Positions 1,316 to 51,035 of a stretch of DNA of 64,000 nucleotides are shown here, piece after piece. Below the pieces are notes generated by a model, which was given only the letters and a program-made list of their open reading frames with translations, did no database searches and was not told the origin of the DNA. The position numbers and the translations under genes were made by a program. This DNA comes from Octopus sinensis (taxonomy: Eukaryota). The stretch lies in assembly GCF_006345805.1 (NCBI RefSeq), contig NC_042998.1:142662001-142726000 (forward strand), read 5' to 3'. Position 1 is the stretch's first letter, and the number at the start of each line of letters is the position of its first letter.

Positions 1316-1586
1316 AAAGACATGTACTTTACATAAAGATACTTTCGAAATACTTCCGAAGTGCAGATTCCAGGGTAGGTGAGTAAAATATAAATGAGTA
1401 ACAAAGATGTATGAGTATCAGTTTATTGTAATTACTCATGTAATTACTCATGGTAATTACTCATTTATATTTTATATAAATTTTACATAAATGATATATA
1501 AGATTCAGTTGAATTAGGCACTTAAATTGAGGTACCAAGCCAGTTCGCTATATTCCAAGCAGCTCGAAGTTAGGTGAATAAAAAGC

Positions 1587-1728
1587 AAGTAAATAACAAG
1601 GATGTCCAGGTATCAGTGTATTACGGCCGTTTCAAGCGGCTCCATTTAATCCATTTTCATTGATCGATTAAGTGGAGCTGCTTGAAACGGTGTAATGCAC
1701 TGATACGTGAACTTCCTTGTTACTTATT
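1587..1728. repeat. Imperfect fold-back palindrome (~60-bp arms) ending in (TA)n
   Basis: AACAAGG...GTATCAGTGTATTAC..CCGTTTCAAGCGGCTCCATTTAATC is the near reverse complement of GATTAAGTGGAGCTGCTTGAAACGG.GTAATGCACTGATAC...CCTTGTT. Confidence 0.85.
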
Positions 1729-1734
1729 TTCTTT

Positions 1735-1810
<76 letters not shown>

Positions 1811-2067
1811 AATAGTAAAAAGTGAAAAAACTACAGAAGGCTTGTTTTAAAAGGTTAAAAAATATATATTTGAGTCAATATGTCTGAAGGAGGTTATAAA
1901 TTTTTTTCATACAATGACATAGTATAGAAGAAATACAGGTTTCGCGTTCAGCTTTTCAAATTTCTTGAGAAATTTGAAAAGCTGAACGCGAAACCTGTAT
2001 TGACTCAAATATATATTTTTTAACCTTTTAAAACAAGCCTTCTGTAGTTTTTTCACTTTCTACTATT
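1811..2067. repeat. Nested palindrome between (TA)n tracts
   Basis: Outer arms 1811-1880 and 1998-2067 (70 bp, one mismatch seen). Inner perfect hairpin 1932-1965 / 1968-2001 (34-bp arms, 2-nt loop). Confidence 0.9.
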
Positions 2068-2110
2068 TTCTATATATTCAACCACATGCTTTCACATACC
2101 AACTTTCTTA

Positions 2111-2156
<46 letters not shown>

Positions 2157-2187
2157 GGGTAGAGAAATTAGAGACAACATTTTTCAT

Positions 2188-2580
2188 ATAAAATTAGTGC
2201 ACATTCATACACAAAAGAGGTGACCCTAACAGGACACCTTACATGCTAAAAGGAACAGTCAAATTCAAAACCACGGTCAAGAATAATTTCGAAGGGGTTT
2301 TGCAAGGAACATGTCGCAAAGGAACAAATAAGATAATTTGTTATCCGTGTTCTTCAGCAAATGCACTAATAATTAATGTATAATTATGGGACAAATAGAG
2401 AGCACATGTCTCACCTTTATACATTATAAGGTTTCAAATCCACCACATTGAAAATGTTTTTATTTTTCATCCCCTTTGAAATTCCTCTTAACCGTCGTTT
2501 GGACTTTGACTGTTCATTTTAGCATGTAAGGTGTCCTGTTAGGATCACCTCTGTTGTGTATGAATGTGCACTAATTTTAT
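2188..2580. mobile_element. Non-coding element with ~110-bp inverted terminal arms within (TA)n (MITE-like or inverted Penelope-like fragment)
   Basis: ATAAAATTAGTGCACATTCATACACAA..GAGGTGA.CCTAACAGGACACCTTACATGCTAAAA (2188-2297) pairs with 2471-2580. Confidence 0.8.
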
Positions 2581-2775
2581 ATATATATATATATATTTAT
2601 GTGTGTGTCTCTGTGTTTGCCCCACCACCACCACCACCATCGCTTGACAACCGATGTTGGTGTGTTTATGTCCCCGTAACTTAGCAGTTAGGTAAAAGAC
2701 GCCGATAGAATAAGTACTAGGCTTACAAAGAATATGTCCTGGGGTCGATTATATAAAAGAATATATATATTCTCC

Positions 2776-3180
2776 AGGCGCAGGAGTGGCTGTGTGGTAA
2801 GTAGCTTGCTAACCAGCCACATGGTTCCGGGTTCAGTCCCACTGCGTGGCATCTTGGGCAAGTGTCTTCTGCTATTGCCCCGGGCCGACCAATGCCTTGT
2901 GAGTGGATTTGGTAGACGGAAACTGAAAGAAGCCTGTCGTATATATGTATATATATATATGTATATGTTTGTGTGTCTGTGTTTGTCCCCCTAGCATTGC
3001 TTGACGACCGATGCTGGTGTGTTTACGTCCCCGTCACTTAGCGGTTCGGCAAAAGAGACCGATAGAACAAGTACTGGGCTTACAAAGAATAAGTCCCGGG
3101 GTCGAATTGCTCGACTAAAGGCGGTGCTCCAGCATGGCCGCAGTCAAATGACTGAAACAAGTAAAAGAGTAAAGAGAGAG
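2776..3180 (+). mobile_element. tRNA-derived SINE, family A (most abundant family in the window), near full length
   Basis: Head GGCGCAGGAGTGGCTGTGTGGTAAG (A box-like), B-box-like GGTTCAGTCCC, central GGGCAAGTGTCTTC, internal (TA/TG)n, tail GACTGAAACAAGTAAAAGA. Many copies elsewhere in the window. Confidence 0.9.
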
Positions 3181-3214
3181 TATATATTCTTTTATTCTTT
3201 TACTTGTTTCAGTC

Positions 3215-4098
3215 ATATTCTTTATTTAAGTGAGACATGGACCACTTACAAGCGTCATATAAAAATGCTGGAGAGATTTCATCAAAAGTGCCTCAGACGT
3301 ATCTTAGGAGTCAAGTGGGAATGTTTCACAGAGGTTTTGCGCATGCCACGTTGTAGCTCAATTGGACAAGATGTTATCTTGGCTCAAATGAGATGGACTG
3401 GACATGTTATTAGAGTGATAAACAAGCGTTTGCCAAAGCATTTTTTTTTATGGTGAGCTCAATTCTCGTTAGCTGCCACAACATAAGCCGAGGAAAAGAT
3501 ATAAAGACTGTGTGAAGGAAAACCTGAAGAAAATAGATATGAACAAAAGTGATTGGGAAAATGATGTTCTAGATCGGAACAAGTGGAGAGGTGCTGTTAG
3601 GACTGGTTACAATGCCTGGGAGGAAAAGATGATTCAGCATTCTGAACTTAAAAGAGCTTGTCACAAAGGAACAATTAGAACTGTAATCAACAATGAACAT
3701 TGGATATGTATTATATGCGGCCGTGTCCTGTTATCAAAAGCAGGATACGCGAACCATATGAAGTCACATGAAAATCATAATGCCCAGATATGTAATGATC
3801 TTGTACACCAACCGCCTCTTACGACTTGTGTCGTATGTGAAAAAACTTGTAAGACAATATTTGGACTTTAGAGATATATGCAAGTTCACAAAAAACATAC
3901 TTCAGAATCAGATTCCAAAGGGCATGTATATAGAAGAAATTTGAATAATATCTGTCACTTGTCAGTCTGCAGATAGTATTAAAAGTCATCTAAGGGCTTA
4001 TCAACGGAACAATTGTGTTGTGTGGTGGGGTGGTGTGTGTGTATGTGTTGATGGGACGGTTATCTCTCAAGATGAAGCAATCATCATCATAATCATCA
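3215..4098 (+). mobile_element. RTE-clade LINE 3' fragment with C-terminal C2H2 zinc fingers and (CAT)n tail
   Basis: LYLSETWTTYKRHIKMLERFHQKCLRRILGVKW...MRWTGHVIR...RLPK; RKRYKDCVKENLK...DRNKWR; CIICGRVLLSKAGYANHMKSH; ends in ATCATCATCAT. Confidence 0.85.
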
Positions 4099-4160
4099 TA
4101 TATATGTACCTCAAGGCGGTGCCCCAGCATGGCCGCAGTCTAATGACAAACAAGTAATAG

Positions 4161-4218
<58 letters not shown>

Positions 4219-4327
4219 TGTATGTATGTATGTATGTATGTATAAATATGCATGTATATTTGTGCTTATATTATTCTATGTATGTATATGTTTACTTATA
4301 TCTAAAATCTGTACCTTATAGATACAG

Positions 4328-4396
<69 letters not shown>

Positions 4397-4909
4397 AAAG
4401 AAAATAGAGATAATTAAATTAAATATGCATAATTACAAAATTAGGTATCATCTCTGACACTGTTTCGATTCAAGACATTTGAAATTAATTAGTATAATTA
4501 AAAGCATTTTAAAGTTGAATCCCACCAGAGGTGGAAAAAGAATAACCCTTACATTTTCATATTATTGTGTGTTGTGTGTAGGGAGCAAATCCACTAACTG
4601 ATAAATTTTTTACTTCATAGAACGCTGTTTGAAAATTTTAACCATTGGATTTTTTTTATTTTCATTTTTCATTTGATCAATTCAGTATAGATTTTTAGGG
4701 GTGTTAGCCTCTCTTATATTACGAATATGTACGTATATTAAGTAGAGATAATATAGATAAAAATATATATATAAACCCCAGTTTATCCAATTATCTTATA
4801 GCTGAATATTAACTGTAATATTCAATATTTTTTGTAATAGGTAATAAACCAGTATATTCAATGGATTTTATTATCCCTTAATGAGGTTTTTAACCTTTAA
4901 TTGGACTTT

Positions 4910-4951
<42 letters not shown>

Positions 4952-5713
4952 TGACGATGGTAATATTGTTTTCATCATGCCAACAGAGTGTCTATGAGGT
5001 ATCGTGCTAGCTTTATTGGACCTGAAATTTTGCAGAGGAATTGCTATTTTGCATGGGCATTCATGCTTAATTTAATCTTTACACTTTTAACAGTGATTAC
5101 GCACGCGGGCGCACGCACATACACATACACACACACATACAAATACACACACATGCGTGCCTGAGCGCGTGTGAATAGAAATGCCATGTATGTATAAAAG
5201 AATGATAAATGTAGATATACGGAGAGCCAGAAAAATGAATGCACAAATAGAATGCAACAAGTAAATACACTGATATATAAACATACATATATATACACAC
5301 ACATGCACAATGATACACGTATATATACAAACATAAGTGTTTGTATGTATATATGTATGCATGCATGTCTGCTAAATTGTACGAATGGTAGGAAGGATGA
5401 AATAAATGCCTAAGTGATAGAAAAAAGGAAGTACTGCTCAAGTGTTTGTGACAGTGAATTAAGTAGTTTGGTGAACGAAGTTAATGTGGTGGTGGTGGTG
5501 TCATTGGTGTTAGTGTTGTTGTTCTTGTTGTTGGTGGTGGTGGCGGCGGCGGCGGTGGTGGTGATGGTGGTGGCGGCGGCGGCGGTGGTGGTGGTGATGG
5601 TGGTGCAGATGACTTCCCCCAAAAGGAACGAATCAAAAAACGTCACAGCAATAAATACTTCCGGTATCACGTATAACAAGACAAAAAAAAACCCCTACTT
5701 TTAGAGTATCTCG

Positions 5714-5752
<39 letters not shown>

Positions 5753-6571
5753 CTTAGGAAAAGAGACCTTATGCTGTTGAGAGCGCTTATTGATGAATAG
5801 GAAAATAATTAGGAGAAAGAAGATAGAGAGGGAAAAAAGAGAGAAAAAGAAAAAGGGAAAATAAGAAGCATTAAGATAGGGGAGAGGGAAAATTCTACAA
5901 GTGTTACATATATTCACGTTCAGTCATATGCGTGTCTGTGTATGTATGTGTGTGTGTGTACGTATAAATGTACGCATGTATGTATTTATTTGCGTGTACA
6001 TATTTGTGTATCTATGTATGCTCACTGGTATGCATCTACACATATATGCAAATGCATCTGTAAGTGCAGGCATGTGCTTCAATGTGTATGTGGATCTATC
6101 ACAATCATACTGAACTTCATGAATGTTTTACATATTTTGACAATGCCTGTGACAACTTGTAGCTGCAATGTTTTCATTAGGCGTGCCGTGTTCTTTTGTA
6201 AGTAGCAGCTTCTCAAGACAGGTGCAAAGCCTGTTATTCACGTATTCAAATGCTCCAATAATTATTGGTATAAATTTAAAATTGTAGGGGTAACTGTCGT
6301 TTAGTCCTCAGATCGGCATCTATATTTTCTTTTTCAGTAATATTTAACATTAGAGTGTTACCCGGCAACTTTGGAAGTATACTTTTGCCACCGTGGTAAT
6401 AATTTGTAAATCTGACATCTCCTAAATAATTATAACTTCTTTTCTTATCAAATTTCTTTGTGCTTATACAAAAATGATGAATTGAATTCTAATTTTGAAA
6501 AGAAAAATATTTATTACCTTAAAATTAATTAAAACTAAATATATATCTCATTTGTGCATTTGCAATAAATA

Positions 6572-7812
6572 CAGGTGTCTCCCAAAAATATATACACATT
6601 TTAAAAACTGAGAACTCAAATTTCATTTTTTTTTAAAAATTCAACCCATTTTAGATAATGAAGGGAACCAGACTAAGCTTTGAACAAAAAAAAAATGCTA
6701 ACGTGGTACTAGAAGTTTGAAAACACATTCGAAGTGCAAAGGCAGTTTAAAAGTGGATTTCAAAAAGATTCACCAACGCGACTCCATCACTCGAATTAGA
6801 GATAAGTTTGAAGCAGATAAAACTTCAGAGTAGTCCATAAGAAACGTCCCGAAAGATTTCGGGCATCGACGAGTCCCACGAAACATGAAAGGGTAGTAAA
6901 ATGTATTGCCAGAGTTCAGGAAAACTCGTGGAACAAGCGAGTCTTGGGCTAGGGATTTCAAAATCAAGCGTCCACCGCATTTTGAAGTGTTGTTCTTTGG
7001 AAAAGTTACATTCCAAGAATAGTCTATGCTGTCAGTGAAGATGATCCAGGCCGAAGAGTAGAGTTTTGAGTGTGGTACTTGACAAGAGGTACAGAAAAGG
7101 CACCCTTTCCAGCAAATATTGTTTGGCATTATGAGGCTCCAATTAAATTACGTGGCTTAATTAACCGCCACAATTGCACTTATTGGGAACCTGAGAATCG
7201 GCGAATTATGGAAGAACATCGTATTAATTTACTAGGAGTTATAGCGTGGTGTGGTTTATCACAAAAATGTTAATTAGATCACTCTTTTTTTAGGTCCTAT
7301 TTATTTGAACTTGCGGCGACAATCTGTCATGCCAAGCATTCATGAGAACTTTGAAGATGTAGATTTTTATCGCCATCAAGGTAGTCCCTCCCCCTACACA
7401 CACACACTACCACACTAATGTAAGAATCTACTTTGACGAGATTTTACCAAACGGGTGGATTGAAAGAAGAGGCTCTGTAGAACATCATCTGCGATCACTG
7501 GATTTCATACCACTAGACTTACTTTTTGGGGGATACTTACAAGATAAAATTTTGCACAAAACCAGCTATAGTCACCGAACTGAAGGCAGCCATTGAACGA
7601 AAATGAGCAAAAAACCGACCGAAAATGTTTTTTGATGTTTGCAATTCCATTACTTCGCGTTATCAGTAGTGCTTGGACCAGAACGGTCATCAGTTTGAAA
7701 ACAAGCATTCACAAAAAGTCAAATTCTCTCTGTAGATTCTATTAAATTTCGAAAATGAAATCGATTTTAATAAACTCTGACTTTATATTCATTCAGTTTT
7801 GTGGGGACACCT
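6572..7812 (+). mobile_element. Tc1/mariner superfamily transposon (rosa/DD41D-like), degenerate
   Basis: TIRs CAGGTGTCTCCCAAAA / TTTTGTGGGGACACCT after TA. Peptides IVWHYEAPIKLRGLINRHNCTYW..ENRR..VIAWCGLS, and a decayed 'SPDLTPLDFFLWG'-like motif near 7490-7535. Confidence 0.8.
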
Positions 7813-13195: not shown

Positions 13196-14482
13196 CAATG
13201 GTTGGCTGAAAAGTTCATAGGCTGTCCATGAAGGAGTGGTGTTAGAGCTGTGAAATCTTTCATGCACAAGTTTCTTCTTGTTAATAACTTCATAGTATCT
13301 TCCCAGATAATCTTACGTCTGACTGTTCAAAGAAGACATCGAATGTAACAAATAGCTGCTTCTCTTGGAAATTGACAAAATTTGACATTGTAGTGTTATC
13401 AAGTACTTGCAGAAAAAAGGATTTAGCCTTCAACGATATTCATGCTGATGTGGTTGCTATATTAATAGATGATGTTTCAGTTTTATCAACAGTGCAAAAG
13501 TGGGCAACTGAATTTAGGAGGGAAACGAAGAGTCTTGAAGACGGCCCAAGGTTTGGACGTCCTATAACTACCACCAACGAGGTAAACATTGATTGTGTTC
13601 ACTACGTGCTATTGGATGACAGGCGATTGACTATAAATTTAATAGCCAATGCTGTTAGCATATCCCGTGAGAGAGTTGGGAATATTAGGCACAATAAACA
13701 TGGTATGACGAAGGTTTCTGCTCCGTAGTTGCCACGTCTTCTGACACCTGATCAAAAGTGCACCAGGCTGATCACATCACGGGGAAATCTGACATTGTTT
13801 GAGGCAGGTCCATTTGATTTCTTTGAACGTTTCATAACCCAGGATGAGTATTGGTTTCACCACTTTGATATAGAGACAAAGAGACAATCCATGCTGTAGA
13901 AACACCCATTCTCACCTGCTTCAAAGAAGGCCAAGGTCGTTTCATCTACAAGGAAAGTCATGGACTCAGTTTTTTGAGATGCAAACGGCATTCTGTTTAC
14001 TATCTTCAAAAAGAGTACGCCACCAGTGGAGAGTACTATGCTAATTTGCTGGCGCAGTTATGGAAGGCTATCAAGTCTTAACGCCCTGGAAAGCTGACGA
14101 AAGAGGTCTTGTTTCATCAGGACAATGTTCCAGCACGTAAGTCCTAGGTTTCAATTACCGTTTTATGTGACTGTGACTTTCAAGTGGTTAATTGCCATCT
14201 TTATTCTTCTGATTTGGCCTCATCTGACTATCTGTGTTCTCCAACATGAAAAAGCAGTTGACTGGAAATCAGTGTCGCAGTGATGGTGACGCTACGTCTG
14301 CTGTTAATAACGTTTTTGACCAACAGGATGAAAGCTTCTTCATCAACGGAATTCAAGAACTGCAACACCGATGGAAGAAGTATGTGGACCGCAAAGGGTA
14401 CTATGTTGAAAAATAAACCTCATTTGGTCACATTCAATGAGAGTACCTAGGTCAGCCTATGAACTTTTGCAGCAGACCTTCG
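13196..14482 (+). mobile_element. Mariner (DD34D) transposon, full length but pseudogenised
   Basis: TIRs GGTTGGCTGAAAAGTTCATAGGCTG / CAGCCTATGAACTTTTGCAGCAGACC. Peptides VQKWATEFRR..SLEDGPRFGRP, TQDEYWFHHFD, FHQDNVPA and GIQELQHRWKKYVDRKGYYVEK. Multiple stops. Confidence 0.92.
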
Positions 14483-26962: not shown

Positions 26963-27534
26963 GCCTATGCACCTCTTCGCTGTTTCGGGAAGCTGTGATA
27001 AAAAAATTAAAAAAATAAAATGAACAAAACCAACGTTAATGAACGAGCAGACACACCAATTGAAAGACAAAGTAACAAAGCGAGTCAGACTGGCAGACAA
27101 TATTGACAAATAAAGAAATCTGGTAAACAAAGGATAGATCTAAGAACAGACACAAATGCAAATACGATATCTTTGTGATTATTGTTCTGAGTTCAAATCC
27201 CACCGAGATGAACTTTACTTTTAATCTTTTCATGGGTCGATAAGATATATTACAAAATGTGTGGCATTGTGTCAATGTTTGGGCTATAGCTTGAGTTAAC
27301 CTAGACACAAAAATATTAACGGAGCCCCAGAATGTGTTAATGAAAGATTTATTTAATTAAACACATGAGGACGACAACCACCAAATCGTAGAAGTTCGAT
27401 TAACTGGAAATCAACTTCATTGCAGATCAGCTCCCTAGCTAACCCGCAGTGAAGTTCCTGACTACAGTTCGTCCGTCATAAATCCTTGGGCAGTGCCCTG
27501 CATATAGCTCCCTCCACCCCAGAAATGTTGACTG

Positions 27535-30500
27535 TCATTGGAATCGGGAAGACGTTTTAACCACCTTGCCCGTGCGTGTGGTTGCTCGGCTCTTTGGTGA
27601 CTGTTCGTTGCCAAGAGTTGGTGTGATTTGCCTGAGGTGGCCTCTATTTTGTGGTTGAGGCACTTGGACGGTGCTGTCAATATCGAGATAAGCCGGTTTC
27701 ACCCTATCGATGGAAACTGTGTTTTGTCGTTCGCCTGTTAGGAGATTTGACTCCCGGACATATAACTTCATATGGGCCATCGTAGGGTGACTGGAGGGTT
27801 TTCGTCGTGTGTCACGTCGAACGAACACGAACTTAGCCGTGTGGAGGTCATTTGGTATGGATGATTTAGGTGTACTGTGTGCAGACATGAGAATAGGCTG
27901 CAACTGGCCTACACTGTCTCTCAGTGCGCGAAATAATTTTTGACATCTGGGACTGAATTTCTGTTCGGAAAGAACTCTCCTGGCACTGTAAGAGGGGCAC
28001 CATACACCATTTCTGCGGAAGAAGTGTTGAAATTTTCTTTTGGGCTGGTGCAGATTCCCAGCATCACCCATGGAAGTTGATCAATCCAATTGGGCCCGTT
28101 AAGTCAACTTGTCGAGGATTCCTTCAGGCAGCGGTGAAATCTCTCCACTAACCCCTTGGTCTGTGGATGGTAGGTTGCTGTGCGCTTCATTGTGATTCCA
28201 AAAAGGTAACACATGTCATTCCACAGCTTTGAGGTGAATTTGGGCCCCGATCGGGTGAGATGCTGTTTGGGACATCGAAACGGGCAACTCAGTTTATGAT
28301 GAAGGCTCAGCGGACTTCTTCTGTTTTCGTGCTGCGAAGAGGGATCGCCTCAGGCTAACGAGAGTAGCGGTCTACCAAGGTCAATAGGTACGAGCAGCCC
28401 TGTAAAGGTGGTAGGAACCCGAAAAGATCAATGTTAATGTGACTGAAACGGGCCTGTAGTGGTTCATAGTTGCCGACGGGTGCTATGGTGTGCTGATGGA
28501 CCTTGGCTTGTTGATAGGGAATGCAGGTTTTGGTCCACTCCCCAATTTGCTTGGCTATACTGTGCCAGATAAATTTACTTGACAGCAGGCGCCGTATGGC
28601 TCAAGTACCCGGGTGGGACAGTCGAAAACCTTCCTGCGCTAGGCTAATTGGACGATCGGTCGTTGCTTTCAGTGGATACATCATACAGCAGGGTTGTGCT
28701 ATTGGAGCCAAAATTCACATCCTGCAGGAAAGTGATGTAATGGTAGTGCGATAGGCTCTGATCTCGTCATCTGTCTGTTGGGCTGCAGCCATAGCCTTGC
28801 AATCCAGACCTTCCGTTATTGGGGCTAGGTAGGTGTAAGAGCAGGTAGGGACATGAGAGAGTGCATCAGCGACCGGTTTGCCTTTTCCAGCTATGTGTTG
28901 GATATCCGTGGTGTACTCAGAAATGGCTGACAACTGTCGTTACTGACGTGCAGACCAAGGCTCTGAGAGCTTGCTCATAGCAAAGGTGAGTGGTTTGTGG
29001 TCTGTGAACACTGTAAACGTGCGGCCTTCAAGGAAATAGCGAAAGTGGTGGACACCTAGATTGATAGCCAGCAGTTCCCTGTCAAAAGCACTGTATTTCT
29101 GTTCAGGAGGTCGTAGTTGTCGACTGAAAAAGGCAAGTGGTCGCCACTTACCATTGATGCGTTGTTCCAAAACGTCCCCAATGGCTGTGTCGGAGGCATC
29201 GACTTTGAGTGCAGTCCAAGCTGACATATGAGGACGGGGCAGTATGGTTGCTTTAGCCAGTACTTGTTTTATGGATTTGAAGGTTGAGGTCATTGCACCA
29301 TCTCACTCCACCTGTCTTTTTGAACCATCTTTTGACAGTGCCTTATATAGGCGTCACATTATTCTTGCTGCAGAAGGGATGAAGCGATGGTAAAAGTTTG
29401 CCATGCCCAGAAATTAGTGTAGAGCCTAGTGTAGTGGTAAGGATAAGATAGCTTTCACTTTTTCTGGCATGGGTGTAGCACCAGCACCTGTCATTCGACG
29501 ATCCCAGGAAATCGATTTCTGTAACACTAAAAACGCACATGTCGGGGTTGATTACTAGACGATACTGTTCCAGTATTTCAAAAAGAGTCACTAGGTGCTT
29601 CTTGTTTAGCTTCGCATTTTGGTTAGTGATAAGGATATGCATAGACTAAATCAAGACCCCTGCACATAGTGTCCATCAAGCGTTGGGAGGATTGTACTGC
29701 GTTTTTCAGGCCAAAGGATGTACATAGGAATTCATACAGCCCGAAAGAGTGATCACAGCGGTCTTAGGTACATTGTCGTCTTGTACTGGCATTTGGTGGT
29801 AACCTAGGATGAGGTTGATCCTCGAGAAAACCGAGCACACGGATAGCTGGGCTGAGAAATCCTGTATGTCTGAAATGGGGTAGCGGTAGGGTGTTGTGTC
29901 TGCGTTGAGCCAGCAGTTATCTCCGCAAGGTTGAAAACCTCCGCTGGCTTTCGATGCCACATGCCAGGGGTGACGAACAGAGACCTCTTGATCGGCGAGC
30001 AATATCCAACACCTCCATATCATCAAACTCGGCCTTTGCGATAGCAGGTTTGTCTGATGATAGACAATGTGCGCGGCTGTTCACTAGAGGCTCGGTGGTG
30101 GGGATGTAGTGTATCACTCCGTGGCGGACTATAGGTTTGGAGAATGTCGGGGATAATGAGATTGGGGCGACTCGCAAGGAAATTCGAGAATTCGTTCTCC
30201 ATCTGAGAGATGGTTGCTATGCGGTAGGTGGTATGTGCAGATGTTTCTAGAGACATAAAAGCGTATGTATTGCTGTAGCAAGTGTGCTCAAAGAAAGTTT
30301 TCCCCCATAATGGGCTGATGGATATCGGCAATGGTGAATGCCCATGTGTATTTCTGTGAGCCGATGTTGAAAGAAAGGATGCGGCGAACGTACGCCTCGA
30401 GTTTGGAGCCGTTAGCGACCGTTAAAGGTTGGCCCCACTCTCCGTAACGGAGGTCTCTTGCCGGCGCTGGGATCACGCTAACTTCTACTCTTGTTTCAAT

Positions 30501-30566
30501 TAGGAACCTACGTCCGGATCTCCAATCGTGGACATAGAGGAGTAGTTGATCGTGTTTGCCGGCCAC
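27535..30566 (-). pseudogene. Gypsy pol (protease, RT, RNase H, integrase), heavily frameshifted
   Basis: PR: RRFLIETRVEVSVIP. RT: YRYPISDIQDF..FSRINLILGYHQMPV...KTAVIT. RH: VDASDTAIG..RPLAFFSRQL..YSAFDRELLAI..TDHKPL. IN: IQHIAGK..VADALS and FVFVRRD..TVSIDRVKPAY. Confidence 0.92.
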
Positions 30567-30599
30567 TAGGTATTCAATGAAGGCCGGCCCTGGGGTTTC

Positions 30600-33500
30600 C
30601 TGGGGATGACCAAGGGATCCTGAAGCTGCATGGTTGTTTGCACTTTGTAGCCTTTTCCCAAACTTTGTGTGGTAGTAGCACAGGTCGTCTTGCTTAACTC
30701 TATCATGTCTTGGGGGCCGACCCTATGGCGTTGACAGTAACACCACTAGATAAAAAAATGTTTGTCGGCTACTTTCGCTAACTGCCGCATATCCTGGATC
30801 TCGGTCTGAGTAATGAGGGCCTGGACCTGGGGTGGTAATTTGTGGATGAATATTTCCCTAAACAAAAAGGAAGGTAACTCACCGAGGGAACTAATACCAA
30901 CATCTTGTCCATCAACTCCGAAGGCTTGGAATCATCTGATTCTTCCTCTAATATCTTGGCTACCGCTTCCCGGTAGCTCCGCCGTAATGTATTCAGCAGC
31001 CTGTTTTTAACGTGGTGTATTTGTGCGTTACTGGGGGTTGGGTTAAAATGTCCAGCACCCTCGTTGCCGTTTCCCCATCTAGTGCCGATACTACGTAAGA
31101 ATATTTCGTTAGGTCTGTAGCGACGCTATACAGCGGCGCATGCGCGAAGCACCGGAAGAAGAACCCTTTTGCCTACGTGGCAGTTAGCCGAGGCAAGGGG
31201 ATCGTAGAACGTTTGACCACTAGCAGCAGTCAGCAGCGACTTGAGACATGGCTATCGAAGGTACAACACGTATATTCTCTCTGTCCGAATTTGATTCTAG
31301 CAGCAGCTTTTACCGAAAGCTTTTAACCAAATTGTTGCAGACTACATCATCTTCCTTTCTCCGGACGCCATCTTTGACAAGTGTCGTTTTGCATTTGAAC
31401 ACTTTCTTATTTTACAGCGATAAGGTTCAGCTGAGACATATCTATACCAAAGGGATGCCAGATACACCAATTATCTGTTACCACATAAGAGAATAAAGTA
31501 GATATATATTATTTACGTTTGCGTCTTGTTGTTTCTGACTGGTAGAGAATCTGGATTATTAAAGCAACGGAAAGTGATTGCTTCTCGCACCCCCAAAAGG
31601 TCCAGAGAAGATATTCACACAAGTCGTTACAGTGGTGACCCCCGACGTGATTCTGGTCTAAAACCAGAGATCACTTAACAACAAAGAAATCCAGTTTTTC
31701 TGCGAAGTCGGAACACGATTAACTCTACGCATTCATCTTTCGACGATTTGTTTCCGTCCTCTCGGACCGTTATAGAAGGAGCCCTTTTCTTATTCTTCAA
31801 CAATGATGACGGACGCCATCATATCATCGATGCCTTTTCTCTACCGTCGTCATCGTCGTCTTAGAACTTCACGTCGTCGTTATCTTCGTCGCCATCAACA
31901 CTAAGAACGATGTTGTCTCAAGTCCACTACAGTCGCCTTCCACCACCACCGTCGCCTTTCAACACCGTCGACCAAGATGTACATAGCAAATCGCGGAACT
32001 TTTGCTTTCACGCTGTTCGTGCATAGCGCGCCAAGGATTAATAGCACCAGTCTATCTGCAAGATTCTTCTGTAACGATTTAACCTGTCACAGCATCGAAG
32101 CTACAACCGCTACACATTGTGTTCAACCGGCATCTGCATTTGTGATCTCAACATTCTGTTACAGAACGAACTGCTATTGTGCATCAGGCTATTACAGACT
32201 GGTAAATTAACCCCATTGTCTGAGATAGCCCTGAGAGACATTTTTTCTATGCGCTGTATTTTTATTTTTGTCGCACACACGTACACACACATAAATGCTA
32301 TCTCTCTCACATACATACGTCACACATGCTTTTCTCGCTTGTTTTTTCCATGCTAAATTTGCCTTTTGTGGACACACCTCATTTCTATAGACCCTAGGGG
32401 TCACGTATACATAGAGAGGGTTGTTTGTCCATTATAACGCGCCAGCATGTCATACCTTTGTTCCTGTACGAACGAGGCATATACTCGCTCAACCACTGGC
32501 ATATTCATTGCTGTTTTTCGGTCTGGCAAGCCCTATTGCATTTCATGCGCCTTTGCTTCGCACGTGTATTGCTTTGTTTTTGCAACACGTTTGCGTTAGC
32601 TTAATTCTTTTCCCGACTCATAGAATGTCGGATGTTCACATGCGCTGCGCCTATGTATAGGCGTAATTTTTTTCCCTGCTAGACCCCTGTTGGTCACGTA
32701 ATTAACAGAGAGACTTATCTGTGTCGCGCATCCCACCAGCATGCTTGCACTGTCGCCTTTTGTGTTACTAGCGATCTATCTGTCGATTCCATTTCCTCTC
32801 CTGCAGCAATTGATTTAACTGCTATTTCGCAGGATCAACCACCTTTAGAGAAGTTGGATTTAATTTCGCCTAGGTTCATTAACTGTGAGTTTGCTTTCCT
32901 TCAGCGGAAGGCTCTATACTTTGTGACGTATCCACCTTCACGCATGCACTTTTGATTTTTGCTCATTTTGAGTATTTTTTTTCCTTTTGGTAAATTTCTT
33001 GTGTATGTTGTAAATTTTGCCATTTTTATTATATTGTGTGCTATTTGGTTATCTGGTATCCACCTTGAGTTTTATAGTCACTACAAGGAATTTTGTGTCG
33101 TGCTTCGCACTGGGGTGGAGCTCTGTAGTGACGCTATACAGCGGCGCATGCGCGAAGCACCGGAAGAAGAACCCTTTTGCCTACGTGGCAGTTAGCCGAG
33201 GCAAGGGGATCGTAGAACGTTTGACCACTAGCAGCAGTCAGCAGCGACTTGAGACATGGCTATCGAAGGTACAACACGTATATTCTCTCTGTCCGAATTT
33301 GATTCTAGCAGCAGCTTTTACCGAAAGCTTTTAACCAAATTGTTGCAGACTACATCATCTTCCTTTCTCCGGACGCCATCTTTGACAAGTGTCGTTTTGC
33401 ATTTGAACACTTTCTTATTTTACAGCGATAAGGTTCAGCTGAGACACATCTATACCAAAGGGATGCCAGATACACCAATTATCTGTTACCACATAAGAGA

Positions 33501-43020: not shown

Positions 43021-44213
43021 CGAGGGGGTACCCAAAAATAATCGAAAACCTTCACTGAGGGACATCCCGTCGTAGTTCAGGCTTCCGGCGCTAGAAGCCA
43101 CTTAATGCGATCCTCAGACATCAGTATGCCGACCCGCGTCGTCCACTGAGGTCGTACTGTCACGTGGTGCATCTTTGTTTTGTAGTGCTCTTCCCTGTTT
43201 GTCGATTTCTGCGATAGCCGAAACGAAGGAACAATGTACTTCCGTGAAATTCTGTTTTCTGCGGAGAAAACGGCGACCAAAACAGTTGCCATGCATCAAA
43301 CAGCTTACAAGGACGCAAAACACATGAGCCAAACATAAGTTTACGAGTGGTTTTCACGCTTTAGGAATGATCCCTGGTCGCTTGAAGACCAACCTCGTTT
43401 AGGGTGACTGCTGACCTCCTGGACATCACGATAATTCGTGAGGTTATCTCGGAGGACCGTCACCGAACAATTGAAAAACTCGTTGATATGACTGATGTGT
43501 TCTAGAGCTTCTACCAATGAATTTTGAGCGAGGAATTGCGAATGAAGAGAGTTGCAGCAAAATTTGTGCCTCGCTTGCTCTTGGAAGATCAAAAGCAGTC
43601 AAGACTGAATGCGTTCAAGTCAATGGAAGAATTCAATGTCACCACGCGTCAAGTGAAGTCCAATGTCAAGACGATGCTGGTTTGTTTCATCGATGCGAAA
43701 GGAATTGTCTGCGCAGAATTTGTTCCTCTTGGTCAAACTGTTCACCATACATTTTACTTAGAAGTTCTGAAGCGTCTGCGGGACTCGATGAAACGAAAAT
43801 GCAACGACCTGCGGCAAAGTGGAAAGCGGTGGTCTCATCACGACAATGCACCTGCGCACACTGCTCTGAGTGTGAAACAGTTTTTGACCAAAAATGGCAT
43901 GATCCTGCTTATCCACTCTTCCCTCTTCACCCGATCTTTCTCCCTGCAACTTTTTTTGGTTCCCCCCAAACGAAAAAATCCTCAAAGGAAAACGTTTTGT
44001 AGATGTGAAAGAGGTGAAGAAAAAAACAACAGAGGCGTTAAAAGGCATCACTTCGCAAAAGTTGCAGGACAGCTTCGAACAACGGAAAACGCGTTTGGTC
44101 CGGTGCATTGCTTCAAATGGAGAATACTTTGAAGGCGATAAAAGTGTAAACATGTAAAACTAAGTGAATAAGATGATATTGTAAAATTCCGGTTTCTTTT
44201 GGGTAACCTCTGG
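43021..44213 (+). mobile_element. Mariner (DD34D) transposon with an internal deletion
   Basis: TIRs CGAGGGGGTACCCAAAA / TTTTGGGTAACCTCTGG flanked by TA. Peptides VYEWFSRFR..LEDQPRLG, KFVPRLL, KTMLVCFIDAKGIVCAEFVPLGQTV, HHDNAPAH. The region around the first catalytic Asp is missing. Confidence 0.9.
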
Positions 44214-45520
44214 TATATATATATATATATATATACCAGAGGTTACCCAAAAGAAACCGGAATATACATATATATAAAATGTACGACGTGCTTCCACAGT
44301 TTTACTCACTAGGCATTGGTTAGACCGGGGCAAAAATAAAAGATACTTACTCAAAGTGCTGCGCAATGGAACTAAACCCGAAATTATGTGATTGCAAAGC
44401 GAGTTTCTTAAATACACACTCCCTATTATATATATAAATTAATTATTTAAATAATTCTTTCTATTATTGGCACAAAGCCAACAATTCTGCAAGAGAAGGT
44501 CAGTCAACTTGGCTAGTACTTATTTTATCGACTCCCAAAAGAATGGAAAATATAGTCGACCTTGGCGTAATTTGAATTAAGAAATGTTGTGAAATATTTT
44601 GTCCTACGTGCTAAAGATTCTGCCAACTAGCCGCCTTATTTGTATATAAATCAATTAATGATTCCAAACTTTGGCATAAGACCTGCAAGTAAAGGGGTAA
44701 ATCGATTACATCGACCCCAGTGTTCAACTGGTACTTATTCTATCGAGCCCGAAAGGATAAAAAGCAAAGTACAGGTCAGCGATGTTTGAATTCAGAACGT
44801 AAAAACTGACAAACTGCCGCTAAGCATCCTACCCGACATGCTGTGGATTCTGCTAGCTCGTCGCCCTTCTCTATATATATATTGATTAATATAAACCCAA
44901 CATATTTGGGGGTATCACCTGAAAATATCCGACAGAATATCGCCTGAAGGAATGGGTGGTTATGTAACAATACGAAATTTACGTAACCTTTAACTATTAA
45001 GTTTCACAATGAAAATCGTATTTGTAATAAACCACGCTAGTGAAACACGTTTTGTGATGTTTTGAACTATCCATTTGTTTTCATTTTCGTTTACTAAACA
45101 TTACACCGCGTAAAATATACCAACCATATGCTTGATACATACACGGATCAGCAGGATACCCGGAACCATTGAACAACTGTTTAACTGTTTAAACGTTGCT
45201 GGTTTGACGAGACGAATTACTGAGAATACTTATTTGCGGAGGAATTTCTTTAATTAAACATACGCGGAGGTGCTTCTAGGTTAATTTGCGTTTTAATATA
45301 CCTACATACATACACAACACAAACACACGTACGCACACACACATATACATGCACACACGCACACACACACACGCGCACACACACACACTGACACACACAC
45401 GCACACATATACATATAGGGAGAGACAGACAGGAAATACACATACATATATAAATGTGTGTGTGTGTGTATGCATGCATGCATGTATATGTATGTATGTG
45501 TGTATATGAGTATGTGTGCA

Positions 45521-45566
<46 letters not shown>

Positions 45567-45840
45567 ATATATAATATATATATATATATATACACATATA
45601 TACGTCTATCTGTCTGTCTGCTTCTCTCTCTCTCTCTGTCTCTGCCTGTCTGTCTGTCTGTCTGTCTCTGTCTCTCTCTCTCTCTCTCTCTCTGTATATA
45701 TATATATATAATCAGCCGAAATTACTACGATGATCCGGTTCTTGACTGAAGACTGAGGGTTTCGAATGTCCTGTCCGTGTTTATTGTATCGTCTTCTAAG
45801 AGTTATACGTTCTTGTCCATGTTGTATTTTTCTACATACC

Positions 45841-45875
<35 letters not shown>

Positions 45876-46131
45876 TTCGAAATTGTACAATACGAAAAGA
45901 CAGAAATAGGTGAGAGAACAGGGTGTATTATTTTGACGCTCTGAAAAAGTGGAAGAGATTTTGACCTTTCGAGCTTGCACTTTTCTACAGAAAAGAACTA
46001 GTAAAGAAAGCAGATGAAGAAAAAGAAAAACATATACATACATACATACATGCATACATACATACATACATACATACATACATACATGCATGCATGCATG
46101 CATGCATGCATGCATACATACATACATACAT

Positions 46132-46162
<31 letters not shown>

Positions 46163-46238
46163 TACATACATACAACATACATACATACATACATACATGC
46201 ATGCATGCATGCATGCATGCATACATACATACATACAT

Positions 46239-46269
<31 letters not shown>

Positions 46270-46312
46270 TACATACATACATACATACATACATACATAC
46301 ATACATACATAC

Positions 46313-47148
46313 ATGTAACAACCGATGCAGACTTTGTGGAGTTCACACTGAAGGTATCACCCACATCATAAGCAGTTGTCCGAAAATGTCATCACGGTAT
46401 TCTCTACCGATGAGACATGACGTTGTACCTAGGACACTCTATAATGAGATCCATCGGAAGGATAATCCCGAGGACAACGAAATGAAACCCCGCAATATGG
46501 TAGAAGTCATAGCCACTCGTAATAAAAAGGAATACTGGTGTAATATACCTGTGAAGACCTCAATAAAATGTAAGCACAATAGACCTGATATAATGATTTG
46601 GGATAGAGAAGAGAAACTGTGCAGAGTTGTGGAAATTAGCTGCCCAGCGGATGTTAACATAAATCTGAAGATCAGTGAAAAAGAGAACACCTATGCTGAG
46701 CTATTGAAAAATCTGCAGTTACTCTATCCAGATTACAAGTTCGGGTTTATAGCTGTAATTATTTGGCCACTGGGATATGTAACATACTGCCTAAATACTA
46801 ACCTTGAGAAATAAGGCTTCTCAAAACCAGATAGGAGAAAGCTTATTCGAAAACTACAAATCCAATCCATCACTGGAACTATAAAAATCTGTAAAACTTT
46901 CCAGAAGTTTATCATTTAAATATATATGAGCATGTCTAGATATGTAACTATATGCATGAGAATACATACATAAAGCATACAAATCTGCACATACATACAT
47001 ACATACAAACATACATACAGACAGACAGACAGACAGACAGACAAAAATGCCCTATTGTTAATGTTGAAATTCCAGTGAAGGAACCTTGGATCTAGGTTAG
47101 AAACCGGTTTTTTATTGGCAAGAAATCTTGAAATAAACTGAATAATGA
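46313..47148 (+). mobile_element. 5'-truncated REL-endonuclease LINE (R4/Dong-like) embedded in (CATA)n
   Basis: CRLCGVHTEGITHIISSC (CCHC), RHD, KHNRPDIMIWD, VVEISCP, EKENTY, YPDYKFGFIAVIIWPLG. The 3' UTR ends AAATAAACTGAATAATGA|CATA. Confidence 0.9.
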
Positions 47149-47248
47149 CATATATACATTCGTGTGTCTATGTGTACACATACACACATATACATACATA
47201 CATATACATACATACATATACATATATATATATATATATTATATATAT

Positions 47249-47321
<73 letters not shown>

Positions 47322-47329
47322 TATATATA

Positions 47330-47371
<42 letters not shown>

Positions 47372-47651
47372 TATGCGATGTAATTTGGTCTAGATGTATG
47401 TGGTTACATATACTGTGAAAAAAATTTATTCAGAACTGCTACTCCTCCCGACTATTTATTTCTCCAATAAATAAATAAATAAATAAATACATGAAGAGGG
47501 AAAAAGAAAGCCAAAAATACAATATATTCATCGGACTATAAAGATTGCAAGTCCATGGAGCGAGAACAGGATGCTAAAGAGGTGTAGTGTAGGGAAAGAG
47601 AACGTAGATGAAGCAAGATGGAAGGAGGGAAAACAAAGATGAGGCAAATAC

Positions 47652-47652
<1 letters not shown>

Positions 47653-47718
<66 letters not shown>

Positions 47719-47799
47719 TGTGTGTGTGTGTGTGTGAGTGTGTGTGCGTGTGTGTGTGTGTGTGTGGGTGGGTCTGTGAGTGAGTGTGTGTGTGTGTGT

Positions 47800-47838
<39 letters not shown>
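47653..47838. repeat. Long (TG)n microsatellite
   Basis: Direct inspection. Confidence 0.95.
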
Positions 47839-47839
<1 letters not shown>

Positions 47840-48092
47840 ACAGACAGCGATAAATTTAGACAAATATAGAGGTAGGCAGACACATATCTAGCGACTTAGA
47901 TTGATAGATAAATACAATGATACATAATGATAGATACGTATGTATGTACATATAATGTACGTATACGTAATTCAAACATGATTTGATGTAAAACTCAACA
48001 TACTCGTAAGCGTGGATATGACTGTTCACGACAGTCGTAAAGAGCTCAACGCGGGAAAGTGGGAGTAGACTTATAATAAACTCACACACACA

Positions 48093-48127
<35 letters not shown>

Positions 48128-48522
48128 TACATACATACATACATACATACATACAGACATACATACATACATACATACATACATACATACATACATACAT
48201 ACATACATACATACATACATGCATGCATACATATATATATAAATATATATATATACACATATACATATCTAATATAAAACTTAGGTAGCAGGGTGATGTT
48301 CAAAAGAAGACACAGTTGGAAAACGCATTGTGATCAGCAGTGTATAACGATATTGGACAGTCTGGTCTGGTCGATACCCTGTTCCCGTGATACTGTAATA
48401 CTTATGATGTGTGTGCGTGTATAATATATATATATATATACACATTCAAAATGTGAACGCGTGTGTACCGTTGGCGATTTTTTTCCTCTGTCTTCCCTTC
48501 TCTGGATCTTTCCTTCTCCTAT

Positions 48523-48557
48523 GTTTCCGACGAAGAGCTCCGCTCGAAACGTTAAAC
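48523..48557 (+). ncRNA. Minimal type I hammerhead ribozyme (U4C core variant)
   Basis: GTTT-CCGACGA-A-GAGC tcc GCTC-GAAA-C-GTT|AAAC. Stem I GTTT/AAAC, stem II GAGC/GCTC, palindromic ACGT stem III. Confidence 0.7.
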
Positions 48558-48651
48558 CCTCCTTCTTTCCTTCTTTCCTGAGCGTCCAATAATACTATAT
48601 TTGTTCCACGTCCTCGCGTTTTTTTGTGTGCTTTCTTGTTTGGATTAACTT

Positions 48652-48692
<41 letters not shown>

Positions 48693-49075
48693 TAGATATA
48701 TATATATATATATACATATATACATGTGTGTGTGTGTGTATCGTCATGTTCCAGTTGATCCGATTAACGTGGGTCAAGTGGCTGAGCACTCCACAGACAT
48801 GTGTACTCTTAATGTAGTTCTCGGGGAGATTCAGCGTGACAAGGCTGAAACACGAGTACAACAGAAACAAGAAGAGTGAGAGAAAGTTGTGGTGAAAGTA
48901 CAGCAGGGTTCGCCACCACCCACTGCCGGAGACTCGTGGAGCTTTAGGTGTTTTCGGTCAACAAAGACTCACAACGCCCAGTCTGGGAATCGAAACCGCG
49001 ATCCTATTACCGCGAGTCTGCTGCCCTAACCACTGGGCCATTGCACCTCACACACACATGCACATATAATGTATG

Positions 49076-49174
<99 letters not shown>

Positions 49175-49297
49175 ATATCATAATTAAGGGCGCTGGAGGG
49201 TCAACGCCAATACGCTAGAACACACACTCACTAAATGATAACACTATAAATAGGCATGTTGGTAAGGGGAGTAGACAGACAGACAGACAGACAGTAG

Positions 49298-49368
<71 letters not shown>

Positions 49369-49721
49369 CAGATAGGCTGAGAAGGAGAGAGTGTGAGAGA
49401 GATCGAGATTGTATCATTTGATAAATATAGTCATACTTAGATATACATTAAATATAGACATATGATCAGACGAGCGGGAAGGGGAGAGAGACAGAGAGGA
49501 AGAGAAAGAGACCGGGAGATTAAACAGATAGTGGGGAAAGAGAGAGATTAAGGTGGGAGGAAATGTGGAGATATTTGGAACCAGTGTTCCATTTGATTCA
49601 TAAATACACTTAATGGCGCAGACACAGGGTCGCAAGTGTAGGTGGGGTGGAAGGATTGTATGAAATGTTCGTAATACAGTCATGCGATGTATATATGTAT
49701 CTTATATGTGTTGTGCGTGAG

Positions 49722-49757
<36 letters not shown>

Positions 49758-49765
49758 ATATATAT

Positions 49766-49801
<36 letters not shown>

Positions 49802-49816
49802 TATACTTTTTACCCG

Positions 49817-49850
<34 letters not shown>

Positions 49851-50262
49851 CTCTTCCTTTCACACCTCACCCTCTGTATATTCTTTTATTCTTTTAATCT
49901 TATTGTTTCAGTCATTTGACTGCGGCCATACTGAAGCACCACGTTTTAGTCGAACAAGTCGATCCCAAGACTTATTCTTTGTAAGCCTAGTACTTATTCT
50001 ATCGGCCTCTTTTGCCGAACCGCCCGAAGCTAAAGTAGAAGACACTTGTCCAAGATGTCACGCCGTGGGACTGAACCCGGAACCATGTGGTTGGTAAGCA
50101 AGCTACTATATATATATATATATACTTTATTTAAAGCAACGTGAAACTCAGAGTAACAGATTTTGTTGAATTTTCTGCTGCTTTAAATAAAGCATATTAC
50201 TCTACCACTGGTATTTGAGTACACTTTTTTCCACCTTGTTTCACATTTATGTGTTTACTCTC

Positions 50263-50304
<42 letters not shown>

Positions 50305-50532
50305 ATATTATATATATATATGTGTGTGCTTGTGTCTGTGTTTATCCTCCTAGCATCTCTTGGCAACCGATGTTGGAGTGTTTACGTCCCCGTAACTTGG
50401 CGGTTCGGTTAAAGAGACGGAAAGAATAAGTACTAAACTTACAAAGAATAACTCCTGGCGTCGCATGGCCGCAGTCAAGATGACTGAACCAAATAAAAGT
50501 ATATATATGTATGGATGTGTGTATATTTATAT

Positions 50533-50569
<37 letters not shown>

Positions 50570-50575
50570 TTCATC

Positions 50576-50670
50576 CAGATATTTTGGGCTGAGGAGCTAC
50601 AAGTGGATTTTTTTGTAAGTAAAATTACATTTAATTCATTAATAGCGAAACAATTGTCCCAAAATATCTG
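50576..50670 (+). ncRNA. Type I hammerhead ribozyme with intact catalytic core
   Basis: CAGATATTTTGGG-CTGAGGA-GCTA...TAGC-GAAA-CAATTG-TC|CCAAAATATCTG. Stem I is 12 bp with a 1-nt bulge, stem II is extended, stem III ACAATTGT is palindromic, and the cleavage triplet is GUC. Confidence 0.85.
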
Positions 50671-50946
50671 TATTTTTGTTATTTTTTATTTGCCCTGTTC
50701 GTGTAAGCTAAAATCGTACTGACTTTCATGGGAAACAAGTATTTTTGTGGTTGAAACCTTTTGGATTAGCTAGTGCTAGAGTGAGCCATATAGTGACCAC
50801 TCTCTTATATTTATTTTGTATAAAATATTATAATATTTTACAAAATATTATAATAATCCAGGTTTCTCGGAGCACTGGGCCACTTGGTGTTGAATAGATA
50901 TACTATTAAATTAGTATCTAATTCTCTCACCCTTATTATTAATTAT

Positions 50947-51035
<89 letters not shown>

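What the first reader, a model, noticed from the sequence alone, without database searches (positions are those of the whole stretch)
1330..50950. System-level: a diverse family of (TA)n-targeting, non-coding, ribozyme-bearing mini-retroelements
Seen: at least eight mostly sequence-unrelated islands of ~140-500 bp (~1330-1737, 1809-2112, 2155-2580, 4395-4912, 45870-46030, 48465-48655, 50125-50265, 50570-50950) abut (TA)n tracts. They have no ORF and share a GAAAC-N(0-4)-GTH hammerhead signature and/or fold-back structure. Inference: many lineages of Penelope-like pLTR or retrozyme-like RNAs are being copied into TA microsatellites, which fits the AT-rich preference of GIY-YIG endonucleases. 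At this density (roughly one per 8 kb here) they would place self-cleaving and double-stranded RNA modules throughout introns. I cannot tell whether these families have already been catalogued.
Basis: partly seen in the sequence, partly recalled or inferred. Interest (0 to 1): 0.75.

Follow-up and report, generated by a model that had tools for sequence, protein, structure and literature searches.

The report
Penelope stubs and retrozymes in TA
These islands are leftover ends of Penelope-type jumping genes plus a few short non-coding relatives; each family carries a hammerhead (self-cutting RNA) motif and sits in TA repeats, a known kind of element whose fixed ends likely record where the copying enzyme starts and stops, though only two of the eight copies here keep a complete motif.

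Summary
The islands are real but not one new non-coding class. All eight are repeats beside (TA)n. Other copies show a type I hammerhead core in every family, but only islands 6 and 8 keep a complete motif here. In 1 Mb sampled evenly from the genome, 20 intact hammerheads were found against 0-1 in shuffles; 14 of 17 with a palindromic stem III have (TA)n within 300 nt downstream (18% expected). Islands 2 and 7 are 3' ends of coding Penelope-like elements (PLEs; Neptune/Nematis-type linker, and Hydra-type). Island 5 is linked to one through relatives. Islands 8 and 3 are ORF-less tandem units (about 535 and 455 nt), i.e. non-LTR retrozymes. Islands 1, 4 and 6 are unresolved. 78 of 88 two-armed insertions pair one inner and one outer fixed end (the PLE 'tail'), including 12 of 12 for the retrozyme. 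Short copies of two families start at one initiator-like site. PLE hammerheads, TA targeting, tails and retrozymes are all published. The scan found this before on other DNA of this genome. MITEs are rejected. Cleavage and expression are untested. Verdict: new members of known kinds.

The parts
1499..1737 (.). Island 1, family 1: two-armed insertion (minus arm 1499-1654 with outer end, plus arm 1654-1737 with inner end). Both arms start inside stem II, so the CUGANGA half is missing. The family has over 1.1 kb of non-coding sequence upstream; autonomy unresolved.
1809..2112 (.). Island 2, family 2: 3' end (pLTR) of a coding PLE with RT, CxxxxCxxC linker and GIY-YIG; two arms, inner end left and outer end right. 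Hammerheads with U3-A8 core at 1974-1999 (+) and 1934-1959 (-), both damaged at stem III and the cleavage site.
   Evidence: (95-96% to the 3' end of an 804-aa ORF copy)
2155..2582 (.). Island 3, family 3: rearranged two-armed copy of an ORF-less tandem unit of about 455 nt (retrozyme-like); hammerhead remnant at 2340-2357 (-), GAAA half lost
4397..4911 (.). Island 4, family 4: two-armed insertion (inner end left, outer end right); hammerhead on the minus strand 4456-4528 with mutated core; over 1 kb of non-coding sequence upstream in the family; autonomy unresolved
45872..46030 (-). Island 5: old, decayed pLTR-like end with hammerhead remnant 45963-45990. The family core is CUGUNGA (A6 to U in 37 of 39). 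Relatives are 72-79% like the 3' end of a GIY-YIG-coding copy.
48444..48655 (+). Island 6, family 6: short copy starting at the family's initiator-like wall (48444) with an intact minimal hammerhead (U4C core) at 48523-48557; 3' end at (TA)n; CA-rich upstream region in longer copies, no ORF found in 6 loci
50125..50264 (.). Island 7, family 7: 3' end of a coding Hydra-type PLE (CxCx5C linker, no CCHH); 13-nt inverted inner arm 50125-50137 and plus arm to the outer end; hammerhead lacks its 5' half here
50568..50946 (+). Island 8, family 8: 5'-truncated copy of a 534-536-nt ORF-less tandem unit (retrozyme); complete type I hammerhead 50576-50670 (core 50589-50595, long stem II, palindromic stem III, predicted cleavage after 50658)
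45711..45843 (+).

Best explanation
The islands are short copies of several unrelated hammerhead-bearing repeat families sitting in (TA)n tracts, some the 3' ends of coding Penelope-like elements and some ORF-less tandem retrozymes, and all were likely inserted by PLE endonuclease/reverse-transcriptase proteins. Shown: family hammerheads, TA at both junctions, coding partners for islands 2 and 7, tandem ORF-less units for islands 8 and 3, two fixed 3' ends per family, inner+outer pairing in two-armed copies, and a fixed 5' wall in families 6 and 7. Inferred: the PLE protein nicks both strands of a (TA)n tract and primes reverse transcription at two internal sites of the RNA, 35-140 nt apart, giving a direct arm with the tail and an inverted arm without it. 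For coding families, initiation in the upstream pLTR runs off the transcription start and leaves a 150-210-nt dead stub. For families 8 and 3 the template is likely a multimeric or hammerhead-released circular RNA, giving more-than-unit copies with scattered 5' ends. Hammerhead cleavage, probably as dimers through the palindromic stem III, is predicted, not tested.
For: Even 1-Mb sample: 20 intact motifs against 0 reversed and 0-1 in each of 8 shuffles; (TA)n downstream in 14 of 17, upstream in 6 of 17, null 18%. Core letters are conserved when anchored on stem II; N7 is the free position in the family-5 group. Island 2 lies downstream of 804-850-aa RT+GIY-YIG ORFs, 19,825 first-look candidates for the endonuclease part. 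Island 7 lies about 1.2 kb downstream of a Hydra-type endonuclease. Family 8: arrays up to 8 units with 8 of 8 intact motifs, longest ATG ORF 46 aa, circular fold z = -6.0. Two 3' ends per family, mostly followed by TA. Inner+outer in 78 of 88 two-armed insertions: F1 21/22, F2 18/19, F3 4/7, F4 6/8, F7 17/20, F8 12/12. TA at the 5' junction in 52 of 97 single-orientation copies against 2.7%. 5' wall at YC|ATTC: 10 of 16 incidental family-6 copies within 7 nt, 1 beyond; 29 of 48 family-7 arms at the wall, 7 beyond, 12 inside. Literature: tail and inverted arm, TA targeting by Hydra/Neptune/Naiad (PMC8557442); two internal RT starts and both-strand priming in vitro (PMC11167929); Inr in the pLTR (PMC2377424, PMC3846280).
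Against: No autonomous partner or shared 3' sequence was found for families 8, 3, 1 or 4 in the loci held, so their mobilisation by PLE proteins rests on insertion scars only. Family 6 showed no ORF in 6 extended loci. Family 2 shows no clear 5' wall: 12 of 24 arms run on at least 190 nt. No extra G, which a capped start might leave, precedes the wall in 8 of 8 family-6 copies. Loci were picked as best matches to queries that contain one end, end bins were set after seeing the data, and some unplaced contigs may duplicate placed copies. Five of the 20 sample hits rely on a core variant I added after seeing family 5. In vitro, 8 of 9 Xenopus retrozyme dimers did not cleave (bioRxiv 10.64898/2026.07.22.740005), and cleavage was not needed for insertion of a Poseidon element (PMC11167929).
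Confidence: 0.85

Rival explanations
1. Same elements, but the second arm arises by fold-back: the first cDNA self-primes at its 3' end, is copied back, and is cut or joined at the TA-like inner site.
For: Family-7 arm junctions are near-perfect palindromes centred on the wall. Inner ends are followed by TA-like letters in the element. Arms of one insertion are more alike than arms of different insertions: 2.8% against 3.8-4.2% in families 2, 7 and 8. Self-priming was proposed for inverted pLTRs (PMC3846280).
Against: Many junctions are asymmetric, with arms of very different length and tandem units on either side. Both-strand priming and two RT starts were seen in vitro (PMC11167929). cannot separate one template from one source family.
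Confidence: 0.3
2. All eight families are independent non-coding ribozyme mini-retroelements.
For: Families 8 and 3 are tandem and ORF-less; no ORF was seen upstream in families 1, 4 and 6.
Against: Islands 2 and 7 continue into PLE coding sequence in other copies; family 5 is linked through relatives.
Confidence: 0.05
3. Families 8 and 3 are not mobile RNAs but satellites that grew from PLE ends by DNA-level tandem duplication.
For: Tandem arrays exist; the route is discussed in bioRxiv 10.64898/2026.07.22.740005.
Against: Copies are dispersed over many chromosomes at 96-97% identity, end at two fixed sites next to TA, and pair them 12 of 12, which recombination would not give.
Confidence: 0.08
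4. TA-TSD MITEs (Tc1/mariner type) with chance hammerhead-like strings.
For: Island 3 has 112-bp inverted arms at 91%.
Against: Arms end at different fixed sites, many copies have one orientation only, units are head-to-tail, cores are conserved, and two families lead into RT/GIY-YIG ORFs.
Confidence: 0.01

Closest known systems
Minimal type I hammerheads in pLTRs of metazoan Penelope-like elements (Cervera and de la Pena 2014, PMC4209133; parts 1-2 of 4 read)
   Same: Palindromic stem III, extra base after A9, U3-A8 variant, mostly single or opposite-strand copies from truncated PLEs, many families per genome.
   Different: Several families here have 40-77-nt stems II; the family-5 group has U at position 6, which I did not see in the parts read; activity untested here.
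EN+ PLEs of the Neptune/Nematis and Hydra clades: inverted 5'-truncated arm, tail at one end, (TA)n targeting (Craig et al. 2021, PMC8557442; passages and section 11 read)
   Same: C-terminal GIY-YIG with CX2-5CxxC linker (island 2) or CxCX5C linker without CCHH (island 7); TA targets; tail at one end of two-armed insertions.
   Different: Tails here are about 35-140 nt against the 30-40 bp described; clade calls rest on motifs, not on a tree.
Metazoan non-LTR retrozymes (Cervera and de la Pena 2020, PMC7229834, parts 2 and 4 of 6 and passages; Li et al. bioRxiv 10.64898/2026.07.22.740005, parts 1-3 of 5)
   Same: ORF-less tandem units with one type I hammerhead each, low GC, dispersed monomers to multimers, PLEs proposed as mobiliser.
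   Different: Here the units carry PLE-type scars (TA target, inverted arm, strict inner+outer ends); RNA circles and cleavage are not shown; no sequence link to a PLE pLTR was found for family 8.
Internal initiation of reverse transcription by Poseidon_Ac (Frangieh et al. 2024, PMC11167929; parts 1-2 of 4 read)
   Same: Two fixed start sites downstream of the hammerhead matching genomic ends; AT-rich target; both strands extended.
   Different: That work is in vitro on one coding element; run-off at the transcription start and non-coding passengers were not covered in the parts read.

Membership tests
EN+ Penelope-like element (islands 2, 7) | RT and C-terminal GIY-YIG in one ORF upstream of the repeat | tested here: met
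   Island 2: 804-850-aa ORFs, RVT_1 above cutoff, GIY-YIG weak at E 0.05-0.07 but motif visible. Island 7: RT and EN pieces in L344/L356/L352, no full ORF fetched and no Pfam hit on the EN piece.
EN+ Penelope-like element (islands 2, 7) | Type I hammerhead near the 3' end | tested here: met
EN+ Penelope-like element (islands 2, 7) | Inverted 5'-truncated arm with tail at one end | tested here: met
   18 of 19 and 17 of 20
EN+ Penelope-like element (islands 1, 4, 5, 6) | Coding ORF upstream in the same family | tested here: inconclusive
   None within 1.1-2.5 kb for families 1, 4, 6; family 5 only through 72-79% relatives
Hydra clade (island 7 partner) | CxCX5C linker, no CCHH, CxxC and CxH near the end of the EN | tested here: met
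Neptune clade (island 2 partner) | Placement by RT phylogeny (the linker is shared with Nematis) | not tested
   Only the CxxxxCxxC linker and DKG motif were seen
Metazoan non-LTR retrozyme (islands 8, 3) | Tandem units of a few hundred nt, each with a type I hammerhead | tested here: met
   Family 8: 534-536 nt, 8 of 8 intact in L331. Family 3: period 420-457 nt in 3 of 5 loci checked, intact motifs in few copies.
Metazoan non-LTR retrozyme (islands 8, 3) | No protein-coding ORF | tested here: met
   Longest ATG ORF 46 aa and 40 aa
Metazoan non-LTR retrozyme (islands 8, 3) | Self-cleavage and accumulation as linear and circular monomer RNA | not testable with these tools
   Only assembled contigs of runs of uncertain type were available
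Tc1/mariner MITE | Symmetric terminal inverted repeats defining both ends, with TA TSD | tested here: not met
   Ends are asymmetric and many copies are single-armed or tandem

The most novel reading that the evidence does not exclude
This genome holds tens of thousands of precise footprints of the PLE replication cycle: every two-armed insertion is primed from both target strands at two family-specific RNA sites, short stubs run off the transcription start, and protein-free retrozymes with long-stem-II hammerheads carry their own pair of PLE start signals and are copied from a circular RNA. That would be direct genomic proof that PLE enzymes mobilise animal retrozymes, and it would map the RNA signals they hijack.
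Probability: 0.45. Interest if true: 0.62.

Novelty: new member of a known kind. Interest (0 to 1): 0.4.

Why it matters
What mobilises animal retrozymes, and how PLEs make their tandem and inverted insertions, are stated as open in PMC7229834 and PMC8557442. A young ORF-less family (island 8) with two base-exact start sites, and intact PLE ORFs in the same genome, give a ready substrate-enzyme pair for the published in vitro assay. The result also matters for annotation: such two-armed stubs look like MITEs or SINEs. It does not support a genome-wide layer of active ribozymes, since most copies are broken.

Tried and rejected
Rfam scan: no hammerhead family among the 150 of 165 matches listed, mostly microsatellite matches to miRNA models. 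GAAAC-N-GTH string as a marker: barely above shuffles. My first strict descriptor found nothing because stem II was capped at 45 nt and no bulge was allowed. Expression: no RNA holder listed; runs guessed to be RNA exist only as contigs, cover islands 7 and 8, and show no joints or pile-ups, so nothing follows either way. The family-1 end pairing was dropped because the reference ran into a (TACA)n tract; it was redone. Family 3 gave 1 of 7 with the narrow outer bin and 4 of 7 with the wider one; the wider is used. Arm-to-arm similarity did not separate fold-back from two-strand priming. Search for coding partners of families 1, 4, 6 and for PLE-like ends in family 8 found none in the loci held. 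Extra G at the 5' wall: absent in 8 of 8. Lunse et al. on PLE hammerhead variants was not held, so whether the A6U core is published is open. Dfam and Repbase could not be consulted, and no supplementary files were read; octopus families may be listed in the supplements of PMC8557442 or PMC13282606. Paper searches listed no study of hammerheads or retrozymes in octopus; the O. vulgaris annotation (PMC13282606, part 1 of 3 and passages) lists 31 recently active PLE families and does not use the words ribozyme or hammerhead.
Full report
Setting. The window is G000:C2:142662001-142726000 of a 2.72-Gb animal genome. I take it to be an octopus from recalled repeat sequences; no call shows this. The window is mostly microsatellites and transposon fragments.

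Checking the observation. The eight islands exist, touch (TA)n and do not resemble each other. The GAAAC-N-GTH string is a poor marker: 41 against 29.3 +/- 5.7 in shuffles. A full type I descriptor passes only island 6. Island 8 folds into the same frame with a bulge in stem I. The other six copies are truncated or mutated in the core. Each island is a repeat family. In the fetched copies, anchoring on stem II and reading upstream gives the core: CYGAGGA (family 1), UUGAAAA (2), CUGAUGA (3, noisy), CYGAUGA (4), CUGUNGA (5 group), CCGACGA (6), CYGAYGA (7), CUGAGGA (8). Stem III is palindromic in all of them (family 4).

Unbiased test. I took 100 stretches of 10 kb at even steps over 25 large contigs. 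The descriptor found 20 motifs, against 0 in reversed sequence and 0-1 in each of 8 block shuffles. Five of the 20 need the A6U variant that I added after seeing family 5. Of 17 with a palindromic stem III, 14 have (TA)5 or more within 300 nt downstream and 6 upstream; random positions give 18% each way. Across 395 loci, 195 motifs fall into 20 clusters, and a library of them marks 67 islands in the sample, self-hits included, 49 within 150 nt of TA. Density is about 1 per 15 kb for remnants and 1 per 50 kb for intact motifs.

What the families are. Island 2 continues upstream, in other copies, into a GIY-YIG with a CxxxxCxxC linker. That protein has 19,825 first-look candidates and frames up to 850 aa. 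Four fetched copies give 804-850-aa RT+EN frames followed by the island sequence, 95-96% identical in L338 and 74-82% in the other three. Island 7 continues about 1.2 kb upstream into an endonuclease with a CxCx5C linker and no CCHH, the Hydra signature; Hydra elements are reported to carry hammerheads and to insert in (TA)n (PMC8557442). Relatives of island 5 are 72-79% like the end of another GIY-YIG-coding copy, and island 6 matches that end at 71% over 134 nt. Longer family-6 copies show CA-rich sequence and no ORF in 6 loci. Island 8 is part of a 534-536-nt head-to-tail unit with no ORF over 46 aa, arrays up to 8 units, all 8 motifs intact in L331. Island 3 belongs to an older tandem unit of about 455 nt. 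Families 1 and 4 extend over 1 kb upstream without an ORF or a repeat of the unit in the loci held.

Insertion anatomy. Families 1, 2, 3, 4, 7 and 8 each have two fixed 3' ends, at about +52/+140, +144/+179, +165/+235, +80/+215, +55/+121 and +195/+301 from GAAA, mostly followed by TA. In two-armed copies one arm has the inner end and the other the outer in 78 of 88 cases. I had seen the two ends myself; an earlier scan note prompted the pairing count. TA also lies at the 5' junction of 52 of 97 single-orientation copies against 2.7%, so the tract is likely the target and not an added tail. Short copies of families 6 and 7 begin at YC|ATTC just upstream of the hammerhead (10 of 16 and 29 of 48). 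A looser cluster is seen in the family-5 group (10 of 37 at -94 to -83) and none in family 2. Families 8 and 1 have scattered 5' ends, and 9 of 23 family-8 rows extend a full unit upstream; 3 of those 23 rows are other families. Caveats: loci were chosen as best matches, bins were set on the data, and the two arms of an insertion were counted separately.

Mechanism. Inferred from this anatomy and from published work: a PLE protein cuts both strands of a TA tract and starts reverse transcription at two internal RNA sites (shown in vitro for Poseidon_Ac, PMC11167929). On an mRNA that begins at an initiator in the upstream pLTR (PMC2377424 and PMC3846280, passages) this yields short run-off stubs. 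On multimeric or circular retrozyme RNA it yields more-than-unit copies. Fold-back synthesis of the second arm remains a live rival (one search is inconclusive), and the extra G that a cap might leave is absent in 8 of 8 copies. The hammerhead likely works as a dimer and may be dispensable for insertion.

Comparison with what is known. Hammerheads in pLTRs, with the U3-A8 variant and opposite-strand pairs, are in PMC4209133. Inverted arms, a tail at one end and TA targeting are in PMC8557442. Retrozymes and their proposed PLE link are in PMC7229834 and bioRxiv 10.64898/2026.07.22.740005. My six answered paper searches listed no octopus hammerhead study, but repeat libraries and supplements were not seen. 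The scan's earlier notes report the same system in this genome and the run-off reading in other genomes; these are unchecked notes and not independent support.

Verdict. The parts worth following are the strict end pairing in a protein-free family and the 5' walls, which make the mobilisation question testable. Interest 0.40.

Noticed in passing
window 45711-45843 (+): A further TA-flanked repeat family, 14 copies in the loci held, keeps CUGANGA and CGAAUG(U/A)C across subfamilies but lacks A15.1 and a consistent stem II; possibly a degenerate or non-canonical hammerhead core.
   Followed up: partly
family-5 group, e.g. L231:- and window 45963-45990: Core position 6 is U in 37 of 39 copies while position 7 varies freely; whether this variant cleaves or is published could not be checked.
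   Followed up: partly
window 1-1340 (+) and 46311-46920 (+), with a related piece from 51844: 3' fragments of non-LTR retrotransposons next to (GAA)n or (TACA)n tracts, with weak zf-RVT hits; R4/Dong-like by recalled motifs.
   Followed up: partly
window 44174-44276: Short near-perfect palindrome centred on a (TA)n tract (alignment).
   Followed up: no
window 43500-44130 (+), 13290-14420 (+), 6590-7800: Decayed DNA-transposon fragments; the first has a Transposase_1 hit, the others are mariner-like by eye.
   Followed up: partly
window 27500-30750 (-): Fragments that look like an LTR-retrotransposon pol region in the ORF list.
   Followed up: no
L016, L020, L146, L175, L293: Different hammerhead families are stacked next to each other in the same TA tract, so one insertion leaves a target for the next.
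   Followed up: partly
L072, L228, L390: Family-3-like units share an internal stem II hairpin while stem I changes on both sides (CTTG/CAAG, GTCA/TGAC, CCTG/CAGG), read by eye.
   Followed up: no
L368:590-680: A family-1 copy lies downstream of what looks like a short host exon with a splice donor, so at least this copy may be intronic.
   Followed up: no
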